A stretch of 918 bases of DNA from Candidatus Hydrogenedens sp. (GTDB lineage: Bacteria; Hydrogenedentota; Hydrogenedentia; Hydrogenedentales; Hydrogenedentaceae): contig JBMFRC010000044.1 in NCBI GenBank assembly GCA_049968235.1, positions 1-918 on the forward strand. Reading direction: 5' to 3'. The notes below the pieces were generated by a model. That model saw only the letters and a list, made by a program, of their open reading frames with translations, did no database searches and had not been told where the DNA came from. Positions 1 through 918 of the stretch are shown here, one piece after another (positions within the stretch are counted from its first letter, which is position 1; each line of letters starts with the position of its first letter). Made by a program: the position numbers and the translations under genes.

Positions 1-194
1 GAAGAAAAAGGGTCGAAGTTGAAGACATATTAAACATTAAAATCCCTCTTCCTCCCCTTGAAACCCAGCAAAAGATTGTGGAGGAGTTGGACCGGGAGAT
101 GGAGGCACTGGAAAAAGTAAAACTCCTCAAAGAAAAAGCAGAAAAAAGGATTGAGGAGATTTTGGATGAGGTATGGGGAGAGGAAAATAATTAA
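1..194 (+). CDS. hsdS: Type I restriction-modification system specificity subunit HsdS, C-terminal end. The CDS is 5'-partial: codon phase begins at nt 3 and the stop is TAA at 192-194.
   Basis: Translation of nt 3-191 gives RKRVEVEDILNIKIPLPPLETQQKIVEELDREMEALEKVKLLKEKAEKRIEEILDEVWGEENN. The 'IPLPPLE-QQ-IV--LD' segment (nt 42-92) is the hallmark conserved distal helix of HsdS proteins, followed by a charged E/K-rich helical tail. The frame is open from the window edge. Codon usage is GAG/GAA-rich, consistent with coding sequence. Confidence 0.85.
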   Translation, partial: RKRVEVEDILNIKIPLPPLETQQKIVEELDREMEALEKVKLLKEKAEKRIEEILDEVWGEENN

Positions 195-200
195 ATTATG
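177..200 (+). promoter_or_regulatory. Translational-coupling junction between hsdS and the RhuM-family gene: a weak Shine-Dalgarno-like GGAGAGG (177-183) inside the hsdS 3' end, the hsdS stop TAA (192-194), a 3-nt spacer, then ATG (198-200).
   Basis: The purine-rich GGAGAGGAAA lies 14-21 nt upstream of the ATG. That spacing is longer than the 5-10 nt optimum, so ribosome-binding-site strength is doubtful. The stop-to-start distance of 3 nt is seen directly and is typical of coupled operon genes. Confidence 0.35.
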
Positions 201-918
201 AAATCACAGGCACCGCAAAACATTGTCATCTACAAAACCAAAAACGGTCCTGAGTTATCAGTAAAACTTGAAAAAGAAACGCTATGGCTAACGCAAAGGC
301 AAATGGCTATTCTTTTTGATAAAGATACCGATACAATTGGATTACACTTAAAAAATATATTCTCTGAAGGGGAACTTGATGAGAAGGCAACTACCGAGTT
401 TTTCTCGGTAGTTCAGATGGAAGGCAACAGAAAAGTCAAAAGAACTATAAAATTTTATAATTTAGATGCAATAATTTCCGTTGGATACAGGGTGAACTCC
501 AAGAGAGGTACTCAATTCCGTATCTGGGCAACTAAAGTTTTAAAAAATTACCTTGTTCAGGGTTATGCTATAAACGAGAAAAGATTACTGGAGCAAACTC
601 AAAAACTAAAAGAACTTCAAAATACAATAAATTATATCACCGGGAAATCTTCTCATCCAGAATTAAAAGGGCAGACAGAAGAATTACTATCACTGATTCA
701 GCAATATGCCAATTCATTTACTTTACTTTATCAATATGACGAAAATAAAATTACCACCTATAAAACAAAAAAATCAAAGTTTATTTTGAAATATGATGAG
801 TGTAAAGATTTAATTGAAGGGCTAAAACAAAAATTTAAAGAAAAAAATGAAGCGAGTACTTTGTTTGGCAAGGAAGTAAATAATAAGTTTAGATCAGTTA
901 TGGGAGCAATTTATCAGA
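198..918 (+). CDS. RhuM-family (Virulence_RhuM-like, Fic/DOC-associated) protein of unknown function, 3'-partial. It starts at ATG 198-200, spans 240 complete codons within the window, and continues beyond nt 918.
   Basis: The ORF is uninterrupted from ATG 198 to the window end; I checked every codon by hand. The N-terminus 'IVIYKTKNGPELSVKLEKETLWLTQRQMAILFDKDTDTIGLHLKNIFSEGEL' matches the characteristic RhuM N-terminal pattern (I-Y-T-DG--...E-ETVWL-Q-QMA-LF......I--HI-NIF-EGEL). The core 'FYNLDAIISVGYRVNSKRGTQFRIWAT' (nt 453-533) matches the family's most conserved block. The family assignment comes from recalled sequence patterns, not from a database search. Confidence 0.75.
   Translation, partial: MKSQAPQNIVIYKTKNGPELSVKLEKETLWLTQRQMAILFDKDTDTIGLHLKNIFSEGELDEKATTEFFSVVQMEGNRKVKRTIKFYNLDAIISVGYRVNSKRGTQFRIWATKVLKNYLVQGYAINEKRLLEQTQKLKELQNTINYITGKSSHPELKGQTEELLSLIQQYANSFTLLYQYDENKITTYKTKKSKFILKYDECKDLIEGLKQKFKEKNEASTLFGKEVNNKFRSVMGAIYQ
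276..362 (+). other. Predicted helix-turn-helix-like segment of the RhuM-family N-terminal domain (ETLWLTQRQMAILFDKDTDTIGLHLKNIF).
   Basis: The pattern is: a hydrophobic or amphipathic helix (TQRQMAILF), a short polar turn (DKDTDT), then a second helix with basic and polar residues (IGLHLKNIF). This resembles a helix-turn-helix (HTH) DNA-binding unit. It is inferred from the residue pattern only. Confidence 0.3.

What the first reader, a model, noticed from the sequence alone, without database searches (positions are those of the whole stretch)
1..918. Uncharacterised RhuM-family gene embedded directly downstream of hsdS in a type I R-M operon
The window shows hsdS ending at 194 and a RhuM-family ORF starting at 198 on the same strand. 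Established knowledge is that type I hsd loci often carry embedded 'passenger' genes between hsdS and hsdR or hsdM. The best-studied example is the anticodon nuclease PrrC (and RloC), whose latent toxicity is held in check by the cognate type I R-M complex and unleashed when phage inhibits the R-M system. RhuM-family proteins recur in the same embedded position but have no demonstrated biochemical function. Inference: this gene may be an analogous R-M-linked second-line defence or toxin module. This is a hypothesis; the window contains only the junction and neither hsdM nor hsdR.
Basis: partly seen in the sequence, partly recalled or inferred. Interest (0 to 1): 0.55.

Follow-up and report, generated by a model that had tools for sequence, protein, structure and literature searches.

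The report
RhuM–Doc toxin gene inside restriction operon
The window holds the end of a type I restriction-enzyme specificity gene followed 3 bases later by a RhuM/Doc-kinase gene, a catalogued phage-defence candidate that often sits in this slot but also occurs on its own, so it is a fairly ordinary find.

Summary
Observation confirmed. Window 3-194 (+) encodes the last 63 residues of a type I specificity (HsdS) domain. An ATG at 198 opens a RhuM-family ORF that runs off the window.

Refinements:
- The full protein (332 aa, 100% identical database entry) is a fusion of a RhuM N-module (winged-helix-like domain plus a 50-residue helix) and a C-terminal Doc domain. Its motif HPFVDGNKR is the kinase-type Doc signature and lies outside the window.
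- The upstream gene is probably a natural hsdM-hsdS fusion.
- hsdR probably starts 2 nt after the RhuM/Doc stop, as seen in near-identical and 72-87% identical relatives.

- The idea is not new. Anantharaman 2013 proposed RhuM/Doc toxins in R-M operons. PADLOC lists this architecture as PDC-S23. The sister family PDC-S05 protected E. coli from T7, T5 and T4 as a single gene (Nat Commun 2026).
- A PrrC-like dependence on the R-M complex is unlikely. Only 10 of 80 homologous loci have an adjacent hsd gene. Close relatives (69-74% identical) stand alone. The same slot upstream of an orthologous hsdR holds Avs4 elsewhere.

Best reading: an autonomous, self-regulated Doc-kinase abortive-infection module sitting in the hsdS-hsdR hotspot. 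It is a new member of a known kind and of low-to-moderate interest.

The parts
3..194 (+). 3' end of the specificity (HsdS) coding region: the last 63 codons plus stop TAA at 192-194. It covers the end of the second target-recognition domain and the conserved C-terminal helix. It is probably the S-part of a fused hsdM-hsdS gene.
   Evidence: Pfam Methylase_S E 9.7e-7 and PADLOC Specificity_I. The C-terminal 25 residues are nearly identical to those of the HsdM-HsdS fusion proteins of L003, L094, L095 and L098. The L002 upstream ORF (96% nt identical to the window over window 43-918) is colinear with residues 521-865 of the L003 fusion.
1..42 (+). Variable part of the specificity domain. It differs from the otherwise 96% identical relative L002.
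   Evidence: The BLASTN alignment to L002 starts only at window position 43. Window 1-42 and L002 1337-1378 are unrelated. This is consistent with exchange of target-recognition domains; it rests on 42 nt only.
177..185 (+). Purine-rich Shine-Dalgarno-like stretch GGAGAGGAA inside the end of hsdS, 12-13 nt before the ATG.
   Evidence: Read directly from the sequence. This is an inference, not tested.
198..918 (+). Codons 1-240 of a 332-codon RhuM/Doc gene (PADLOC PDC-S23 architecture). The ORF runs off the window.
   Evidence: 100% identical over 240 aa to P0001 (332 aa; Pfam PF13310 + PF02661). PDC-S23 E 1.1e-128 over the full length.
219..497 (+). Winged-helix-like N-terminal domain (residues 8-100): strands, then helices 33-39 and 44-56, a beta-hairpin 66-87 and helix 89-98.
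453..533 (+). Most conserved stretch of the RhuM module, FYNLDAIISVGYRVNSKRGTQFRIWAT (residues 86-112).
   Evidence: N88, L89, D90, G96, Y97, R98, V99, S101, T105, F107, R108, W110 and A111 are invariant in 62 and in 70 homologues. The stretch lies within the Pfam RhuM match (residues 65-144).
501..647 (+). Single helix of about 50 residues (102-150). It is a likely dimerisation or linker element between the sensor and effector parts.
792..918 (+). Start of the Doc (Fic-fold) domain (residues ~199-240 of ~199-329). The catalytic motif H266-PFVDGNK-R274 lies beyond the window.

Best explanation
The ORF at 198 encodes the first 240 of 332 residues of a single-chain RhuM-Doc protein of the PADLOC PDC-S23 type.

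Its N-terminal part is a winged-helix-like module plus a long helix. This module most likely senses a trigger (a nucleic acid or a phage protein), dimerises the protein, or keeps the enzyme part silent. Its C-terminal part is a Doc-type Fic-fold kinase. When released, it most likely phosphorylates elongation factor Tu and stops translation, which gives growth arrest or abortive infection.

The gene is an autonomous, self-regulated defence or toxin module with no separate antitoxin. In this lineage it rides in the known insertion hotspot between the specificity and restriction genes of a type I system, here hsdM-hsdS fusion -> rhuM/doc -> hsdR. It is co-transcribed with that system, which gives layered defence, but it does not depend on the restriction complex.

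Shown here: gene identities, domain architecture, Doc motif and fold, operon position, and the distribution of homologues.
Taken from the literature: a single-gene RhuM candidate protects against phages, and Doc-motif proteins act as EF-Tu kinases.
Inferred: the target, the trigger, self-inhibition, and anti-phage activity of this particular protein.
For: Identity:
- Pfam RhuM E 4.8e-27.
- The full-length 100% identical P0001 has RhuM plus Fic/DOC.
- PDC-S23 E 1.1e-128, end to end.

Doc type:
- The motif H266-P-F-V-D-G-N-K-R274 fits the Doc consensus HxFx(D/N)(A/G)NKR. The lysine at position 8 makes Doc a kinase rather than an AMPylase (PMC4177925).
- H266, F268, D270, G271, N272, K273 and R274 are invariant in 62 homologues.
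- The profile matches PDB Doc proteins 9vzc (E 1.3e-6) and 3k33.

Autonomy:
- Of 75 and 76 flanking genes in species-representative genomes, only 4 upstream are Methylase_S, 7 downstream are HsdR and 2 downstream are N6_Mtase. No recurrent antitoxin family appears.
- An hsd gene is adjacent in 10 of 80 loci.
- Stand-alone close relatives are L008, L096, L097 and L005.
- Stand-alone and embedded copies are interleaved by identity. L096 is 85% identical to the embedded L094 copy. HsdR is 99% identical between L003 and L094, but the passenger is only 87% identical.
- Plasmid copies lie next to a Tn3 transposase or among hypothetical genes.

Hotspot:
- An orthologous hsdR (79% identical) has Avs4 in the same slot, and another has an ABC-ATPase plus RhuM/Doc.
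- DarTG2 and TgvAB occupy the same hsdS-hsdR slot in E. coli and V. cholerae (PMC12255303, PMC11411939).

Defence:
- PADLOC candidates (PDCs) were derived by 'guilt-by-embedding' in BREX, DISARM and type I R-M systems.
- PDC-S05 (Virulence_RhuM, single gene) reduced plating of T7 and T5 about 1000-fold and of T4 about 10-fold.
- The Fic-family defence protein SoFic also targets EF-Tu (abstract listed).
Against: - No experiment exists on PDC-S23 or on this protein.
- EF-Tu as the target is extrapolated from P1 Doc.
- Self-inhibition by the N-terminal part is not shown. The inter-domain region of the model is poorly predicted (pLDDT 44-68 for residues 121-190).
- Within the closest clade the three-gene cassette is conserved in 7 of 11 distinct loci, with 2-5 nt gaps. 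That leaves room for a functional link with this particular restriction enzyme.
Confidence: 0.55

Rival explanations
1. PrrC-like guarded toxin. The RhuM-Doc protein is bound and silenced by its cognate type I enzyme, and it is unleashed when a phage anti-restriction protein (Ocr-like) disables that enzyme.
For: - The gene sits in the same slot as prrC, between S and R.
- When embedded, the order is always M-S-[RhuM/Doc]-R.
- In the close clade the cassette hsdMS-rhuM/doc-hsdR, with gaps of 2-5 nt, recurs in 7 of 11 distinct loci spanning 72-100% identity.
- No separate antitoxin is present, so some other silencing partner is conceivable.
- PrrC-like genes co-occur with RhuM in R-M loci (PMC3710099; L100).
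Against: - About 80-88% of homologues have no hsd gene nearby.
- Relatives 69-74% identical to the window protein persist alone.
- The evolutionary histories of the passenger and HsdR are incongruent.
- PrrC is almost exclusively embedded in type I systems, unlike this family.
- The RhuM single-gene candidate worked in a heterologous host without its own R-M system.
- The protein has neither the ABC-ATPase nor the HEPN domain of PrrC.
Confidence: 0.15
2. Fused toxin-antitoxin-like addiction module. The winged-helix N-part plays the role of Phd (DNA binding, autoregulation, neutralisation) and the Doc part is the toxin. The gene's main effect is to stabilise the mobile restriction cassette, plasmid or transposon that carries it, rather than to defend against phages.
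For: - The Doc domain and motif are those of a classical TA toxin.
- The gene is found on plasmids, directly behind a Tn3 transposase, and near integrases.
- The N-module alone is common in phages, phage satellites and plasmids, where it is annotated as DNA-binding.
Against: - A single stable polypeptide cannot give the differential-stability killing of classical TA pairs unless it is cleaved.
- Strong enrichment next to defence genes (7 of 76 downstream neighbours are HsdR, where about 0.9 is expected from the frequency of HsdR among all ORFs of the same loci; my estimate gives a Poisson p of about 3e-5).
- The phage-protection result for PDC-S05.
Confidence: 0.15
3. Regulator of the restriction system itself. 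The winged-helix module controls hsd transcription, or the Doc kinase modifies an Hsd subunit to tune restriction (a restriction-alleviation-like control).
For: - Tight translational coupling between hsdMS and hsdR (gaps of 3 and 2 nt).
- A DNA-binding-like fold.
- Small regulators are known next to type I systems (RptR).
Against: - Most family members have no R-M system to regulate.
- The orthologous hsdR works with a different passenger (Avs4) in the slot.
- No operator-like repeats occur in the window.
Confidence: 0.07

Closest known systems
PADLOC phage-defence candidates PDC-S23 and PDC-S05 (single-gene RhuM candidates found by 'guilt-by-embedding')
   Same: The full-length protein matches PDC-S23 end to end (E 1.1e-128) and matches the N-module of many PDC-S05 models. 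Both are single genes, often embedded in type I R-M systems. PDC-S05 protects E. coli B from T7, T5 and T4.
   Different: PDC-S23 itself has no reported test. The tested PDC-S05 protein is described only by its RhuM domain, and PDC-S05 models carry other C-terminal parts. Here the partner R-M system has a fused M-S subunit.
Phd/Doc toxin-antitoxin of phage P1 (Doc = Fic-fold kinase of EF-Tu)
   Different: There is no Phd antitoxin gene. Doc is fused behind a ~200-residue RhuM module. The target and activity are untested. Sequence identity to P1 Doc is only about 21%.
PrrC/EcoprrI and RloC (anticodon nucleases embedded in type I R-M loci)
   Same: The gene occupies a position inside a type I hsd operon, and both are translation-targeting suicide effectors as a second line of defence (the concept; PMC3710099).
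   Different: The protein is unrelated: no ABC-ATPase and no HEPN domain. The predicted target is a protein, not tRNA. This family is mostly found outside R-M loci, whereas PrrC is almost always embedded.
SoFic (single-gene Fic-domain anti-phage system)
   Same: A single-gene defence protein with a Fic-superfamily effector. SoFic modifies EF-Tu (2026 preprint, abstract listed).
   Different: SoFic is described as an AMPylating Fic enzyme. Here the motif has the Doc-type lysine at position 8, and the N-terminal module is RhuM.
DarTG2 and TgvAB embedded between hsdS and hsdR (EPEC; V. cholerae VPI-2)
   Same: The same insertion slot in type I operons. Both are independent defence modules that work without the restriction activity.
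   Different: Their proteins and mechanisms differ (DNA ADP-ribosylation; type IV restriction). Both are two-gene systems.
Salmonella RhuM (SPI-3), the founder of Pfam PF13310
   Same: It shares the conserved N-terminal module (Pfam profile positions 2-84).
   Different: The remaining two thirds of the Pfam model are not matched and are replaced here by a linker and Doc. The 'virulence' label has no bearing on an uncultured Minisyncoccia-like organism.

Membership tests
Pfam Virulence_RhuM (PF13310) | Match to the family profile above the curated gathering score | tested here: met
   95.3 bits against a cut-off of 33.7, E 4.8e-27. Only profile positions 2-84 of 252 are matched (residues 65-144).
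Doc subgroup of the Fic/Fido superfamily | Active-site motif HxFx(D/N)(A/G)NKR with lysine at position 8 | tested here: met
   HPFVDGNKR at residues 266-274 of the 100% identical full-length P0001. Seven of its nine positions (all but P267 and V269) are invariant in 62 homologues. The consensus is taken from PMC4177925. The motif lies outside the window.
Doc subgroup of the Fic/Fido superfamily | Compact helical Fic core superposable on P1 Doc | tested here: met
Doc subgroup of the Fic/Fido superfamily | Encoded with a Phd-type antitoxin in a two-gene operon | tested here: not met
   The upstream gene is hsdS and the downstream gene is hsdR. No recurrent small partner family appears among 75 upstream and 76 downstream neighbours.
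Doc subgroup of the Fic/Fido superfamily | Phosphorylates EF-Tu and arrests translation | not testable with these tools
   Needs an in vitro kinase assay or phosphoproteomics.
PADLOC PDC-S23 (defence candidate) | Full-length match to the family models | tested here: met
   PDLC04965 E 1.1e-128, residues 6-331 on profile positions 4-324 of 327. Two further PDC-S23 models score about 1e-118.
PADLOC PDC-S23 (defence candidate) | Confers phage resistance | not testable with these tools
   Only the sister family PDC-S05 has been tested, with a positive result (PMC12881386).
PrrC/RloC-type R-M-guarded anticodon nuclease | ABC-ATPase N-domain plus HEPN nuclease C-domain | tested here: not met
   Pfam finds only RhuM and Fic.
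PrrC/RloC-type R-M-guarded anticodon nuclease | Near-obligate embedding in type I R-M loci | tested here: not met
   An hsd gene is adjacent in 10 of 80 loci and within four genes in 16 of 80. PrrC is 'almost exclusively' embedded. This particular locus is embedded.
PrrC/RloC-type R-M-guarded anticodon nuclease | Physical silencing by the Hsd complex and activation by anti-restriction | not testable with these tools
   Needs co-expression and pull-down experiments.
Type I restriction-modification operon | Specificity subunit or domain (TRD plus conserved helices) | tested here: met
   Methylase_S and Specificity_I matches for window 3-191.
Type I restriction-modification operon | HsdM methyltransferase upstream | tested here: inconclusive
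   Not in the window. In relatives the N6_Mtase is fused to the S-part: L003 867 aa, L094 1003 aa, L098. The ORF of the 96% identical L002 is colinear with the fusion's linker.
Type I restriction-modification operon | HsdR helicase-nuclease downstream | tested here: met
   The 99.5% identical contig L001 continues 2 nt after the stop with MNLNEATS, which is the N-terminus of the 790-aa HsdR of L003, L094, L095 and L098. HsdR is identified by Pfam ResIII and EcoEI_R_C and by PADLOC REase_I. Only 8 codons are seen in the window's own lineage.

The most novel reading that the evidence does not exclude
In this lineage the RhuM-Doc protein may be more than a hitch-hiker. It could be a dedicated partner of an unusual type I enzyme with a naturally fused HsdM-HsdS subunit. 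Its winged-helix and coiled-coil part would dock on the enzyme or on DNA. A Doc kinase would then be switched on when restriction is blocked or overwhelmed. That would be a PrrC-like guard built from an unrelated protein-kinase effector. The conserved three-gene cassette, with 2-5 nt gaps in 7 of 11 close loci, does not exclude this reading.
Probability: 0.12. Interest if true: 0.7.

Novelty: new member of a known kind. Interest (0 to 1): 0.3.

Why it matters
If the prediction holds, this architecture would be a one-protein abortive-infection system that uses a Doc-type kinase without any antitoxin. That would extend Doc biology beyond Phd/Doc pairs.

It would also give a mechanism to a very large, widely distributed family. 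The family is still annotated as a 'virulence protein'.

The window itself adds little. The association with type I operons, the toxin hypothesis and the defence-candidate status are all already published. The practical value is a better annotation: RhuM-Doc, PDC-S23, in an hsdMS-hsdR cassette. It also offers a compact natural three-gene cassette from uncultured small-genome bacteria that could be tested directly.

Tried and rejected
- NCBIfam gave no family for the 240-aa fragment.
- Scans of the window for promoters, terminators and repeats found nothing above chance. No internal promoter, terminator or invertible-repeat signal can therefore be claimed.
- My own iterated HMMs for HsdM, HsdS and HsdR looked too narrow at first. 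They turned out to agree exactly with the Pfam counts at positions -1 and +1, so I used them for the ±4-gene count.
- The metagenome scan with the HsdR alignment was meant to measure how often the cassette lacks a passenger. It returned only 2 loci because low-complexity peptide patterns were chosen. The frequency of empty cassettes therefore stays unknown.
- The supplement of the Nat Commun 2026 paper, which would hold the sequence of the tested PDC-S05 gene, is not held. I could not check whether the tested protein carries Doc.
- I looked by eye in the P0001 sequence for a Fic-type inhibitory helix motif (S/T)xxxE(G/N) and found no clear match. This was not tested rigorously.
- I rejected the 'virulence factor' reading. 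The closest relatives are from uncultured Minisyncoccia and other environmental bacteria.
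Full report
**1. What is in the window**

The 918-nt window (33.6% G+C) has two same-strand coding regions and nothing else. No ORF on any other frame exceeds 38 aa.

Frame 3 of the + strand is open from the left edge to TAA at 192-194. Its 63 residues match Pfam Methylase_S (E 9.7e-7, above the curated cut-off) and dozens of PADLOC type I specificity models.

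ATG at 198 starts an ORF that runs off the right edge (240 codons). It matches Pfam Virulence_RhuM at E 4.8e-27.

No promoter- or terminator-like site above the shuffled expectation and no meaningful repeat lies in the window.

**2. The full protein**

A database protein (P0001, 332 aa, JGI sample 3300041917) is 100% identical over all 240 residues. A second (P0002, 97%) comes from a Minisyncoccia MAG, class Minisyncoccia of the phylum Minisyncoccota. Both carry Pfam RhuM plus Fic/DOC.

Only profile positions 2-84 of the 252-position RhuM model are matched. 'RhuM' therefore describes a conserved N-terminal module whose core is FYNLDAIISVGYRVNSKRGTQFRIWAT, with 13 invariant positions in 62-70 homologues.

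The C-terminal third is a Doc domain. The evidence is as follows.
- The motif HPFVDGNKR (266-274) fits the Doc consensus HxFx(D/N)(A/G)NKR. The lysine at position 8 makes Doc a kinase of EF-Tu rather than an AMPylase (PMC4177925).
- Seven of the motif's nine positions (H266, F268, D270, G271, N272, K273, R274) are invariant in 62 homologues.
- A profile of the family finds the solved Doc proteins 9vzc and 3k33.

The catalytic motif lies outside the window.

This N-module occurs on its own in phages, streptococcal phage satellites, Wolbachia phage WO and Bacteroides plasmids. There it is sometimes annotated as a DNA-binding protein.

**3. The surroundings**

The window is 99.5% identical to contig L001 and 96% identical to L002.

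Downstream:
- In L001 the sequence 2 nt after the RhuM/Doc stop reads MNLNEATS. This is the N-terminus of a 790-794-aa HsdR (Pfam ResIII, SWI2_SNF2 and EcoEI_R_C; PADLOC REase_I).
- The same HsdR follows the RhuM/Doc gene by 2-3 nt in L003/L004 (86% identical passenger), L094 (74%), L095 (72%) and L098 (72%).

Upstream:
- Those relatives carry one long gene that fuses an N6-adenine methyltransferase to the specificity part. It has two target-recognition domains in L094 (1003 aa) and L098, and one in L003 (867 aa).
- The truncated upstream ORF of L002 is colinear from its first residue with residues 521-865 of the L003 fusion.
- The C-terminal helix of the window's ORF is nearly identical to those of all the fusions.

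The window's locus is therefore most probably hsdM-hsdS(fused) -> rhuM/doc -> hsdR. This inference is strong for the relatives. For the window's own genome it rests on 8 codons of hsdR and 63 codons of the S-part.

**4. Is the gene tied to the restriction system?**

I made two surveys.

(a) Distant relatives. I took 80 distinct loci, mostly species-representative genomes at 38-55% identity, and scanned the neighbours with Pfam.
- Only 4 of 75 upstream neighbours are Methylase_S.
- 7 of 76 downstream neighbours are HsdR, and 2 are N6_Mtase.
- No antitoxin-like family recurs.
- With my HMMs, which agree with Pfam at these positions, 10 of 80 loci have an adjacent hsd gene and 16 of 80 have one within four genes. 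When the gene is embedded the order is M-S-[RhuM/Doc]-R.
- This is a strong enrichment. About 0.9 HsdR neighbours are expected from their frequency in the same loci, giving a Poisson p of about 3e-5 (my estimate). It is nevertheless a minority.

(b) Close relatives (69-100% identity), 11 distinct loci.
- Seven are embedded directly upstream of the same HsdR lineage.
- L008 (Desulfurella) lies among housekeeping genes.
- L096 lies beside a SIR2-like gene.
- L097 lies inside an ArsR-ArsC-[RhuM/Doc]-Acr3 operon.
- L005 lies beside an SNF2/PLD helicase and a 1192-aa Eco57I-type methyltransferase.

Identity matrices are incongruent. HsdR is 99% identical between L003 and L094 while the passenger is 87% identical. 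The stand-alone L096 copy is 85% identical to the embedded L094 copy, which is closer than L094 is to the window protein (78%). The passenger therefore moves in and out of the cassette.

Two further loci with orthologous HsdR (77-79% identical) show the slot filled differently. One holds a full-length Avs4 (PADLOC 2390 bits). The other holds an ABC-type ATPase followed by RhuM/Doc.

On plasmids, full-length copies sit directly behind a Tn3 transposase or among hypothetical genes, without hsd.

**5. What is already known**

- Anantharaman et al. 2013 noted RhuM-like and Doc proteins in R-M operons together with PrrC-like genes. They noted that RhuM is often fused to Doc, and they proposed a multilevel defence (PMC3710099).
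- RhuM annotations are 14-fold enriched next to invertible hsdS genes (PMC9881135).
- Payne et al. 2024 derived PADLOC's candidates (PDCs) by 'guilt-by-embedding' in BREX, DISARM and type I systems. The protein here is a full-length PDC-S23.
- A PDC-S05 representative (single gene, Virulence_RhuM domain) reduced plating of T7 and T5 about 1000-fold and of T4 about 10-fold in E. coli B (PMC12881386).
- The hsdS-hsdR slot is a recognised site for independent systems, such as DarTG2 and TgvAB.
- A 2026 preprint reports that the Fic-type defence protein SoFic modifies EF-Tu.

**6. Mechanism**

The best-supported reading is an autonomous, single-chain, self-regulated toxin or defence protein.
- The RhuM module senses a trigger or restrains the enzyme.
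- The Doc domain, once active, phosphorylates EF-Tu or another essential protein and stops translation.
- The gene is co-expressed with the type I enzyme only because it sits in that operon's hotspot.

The architecture, the motif, the fold and the distribution are shown here. Phage protection is shown only for a sister family, in the literature. The target, the trigger and the self-inhibition are inferred.

The PrrC-like guard model, a fused addiction module and an hsd regulator remain as rivals with lower weight. The conserved cassette in the close clade keeps the guard model alive at roughly one in eight.

**7. Verdict**

This is a new member of a known, already catalogued candidate family in a known type of genomic position. 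It is not a new kind of system. Interest is low to moderate.

The most useful by-products are the corrected annotation (Doc-type kinase effector, fused hsdM-hsdS partner) and a compact natural cassette for a direct test of autonomy against guarding.

Noticed in passing
L094:2986-5997, L003:146-2749, L098:2-2422 (relatives); window 3-194 is the homologous 3' end: The methyltransferase and specificity subunits are naturally fused into one gene (1003 aa with two target-recognition domains, or 867 aa with one). It is followed by a separate ~790-aa HsdR. These look like natural counterparts of the engineered 'MSfus' and 'M-half-S' fusions that were shown to work with HsdR (PMC6158711).
   Followed up: partly
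L002:2536-2686: In the 96% identical Minisyncoccia contig, hsdR is represented only by its first 15 codons (MNLNEATSTDLKVII*). A second RhuM-family gene then starts at 2580 (92% nt identical to window 191-304), and the contig ends. This is either a tandem duplication that disrupts hsdR or a chimeric assembly. Two RhuM-family ORFs also occur in L024, L054, L058 and L032.
   Followed up: partly
L099:1288-5994: A full-length Avs4 STAND NTPase (PADLOC 2390 bits) occupies the slot between a specificity gene and an hsdR 79% identical to the one in the RhuM/Doc cassettes. This is direct evidence that the slot is a hotspot for autonomous defence genes.
   Followed up: yes
L100:68-2736: An ABC-type ATPase (Pfam AAA_21, SMC_N and AAA_13; weak PADLOC Ppl, mad3 and AriA matches) lies immediately upstream of a RhuM/Doc gene and the orthologous hsdR. 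It recalls the published PrrC-like + RhuM + R-M neighbourhoods.
   Followed up: partly
L097:200-3079: A 70% identical RhuM/Doc gene sits inside what looks like an arsenic-resistance operon (HTH_5/ArsR, LMWPc/ArsC, RhuM/Doc, SBF/Acr3), with gaps of 9-21 nt.
   Followed up: no
L003 and L094: HsdR is 99% identical between these two loci, but the embedded RhuM/Doc is only 87% identical and the number of target-recognition domains differs. This points to mosaic exchange of the passenger and the specificity parts within an otherwise near-identical cassette.
   Followed up: partly
window 1-42 versus L002:1337-1378: The window and L002 are 96% identical from position 43 onward but unrelated before it, inside the second target-recognition domain. 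This suggests that the two strains recognise different DNA targets.
   Followed up: no
L091:3094-6999 (Legionella pneumophila plasmid NZ_CP016875.1): A 50% identical RhuM/Fic/DOC gene starts one base after the annotated end of a Tn3-family transposase gene. It appears to be a transposon passenger on a conjugative plasmid.
   Followed up: no
phage records H7-H15 and H8: The RhuM N-module alone (residues ~9-126, 46-58% identical) is common in streptococcal phage satellites (Javan elements), in Wolbachia phage WO gp8 and in gut phage contigs. Mobile elements therefore also use this module, with unknown purpose.
   Followed up: no
L098:2419-3147: An extra 242-aa gene with a weak SprT-like zinc-ribbon match lies between the hsdM-hsdS fusion and RhuM/Doc in one cassette. 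It has no PADLOC match.
   Followed up: no
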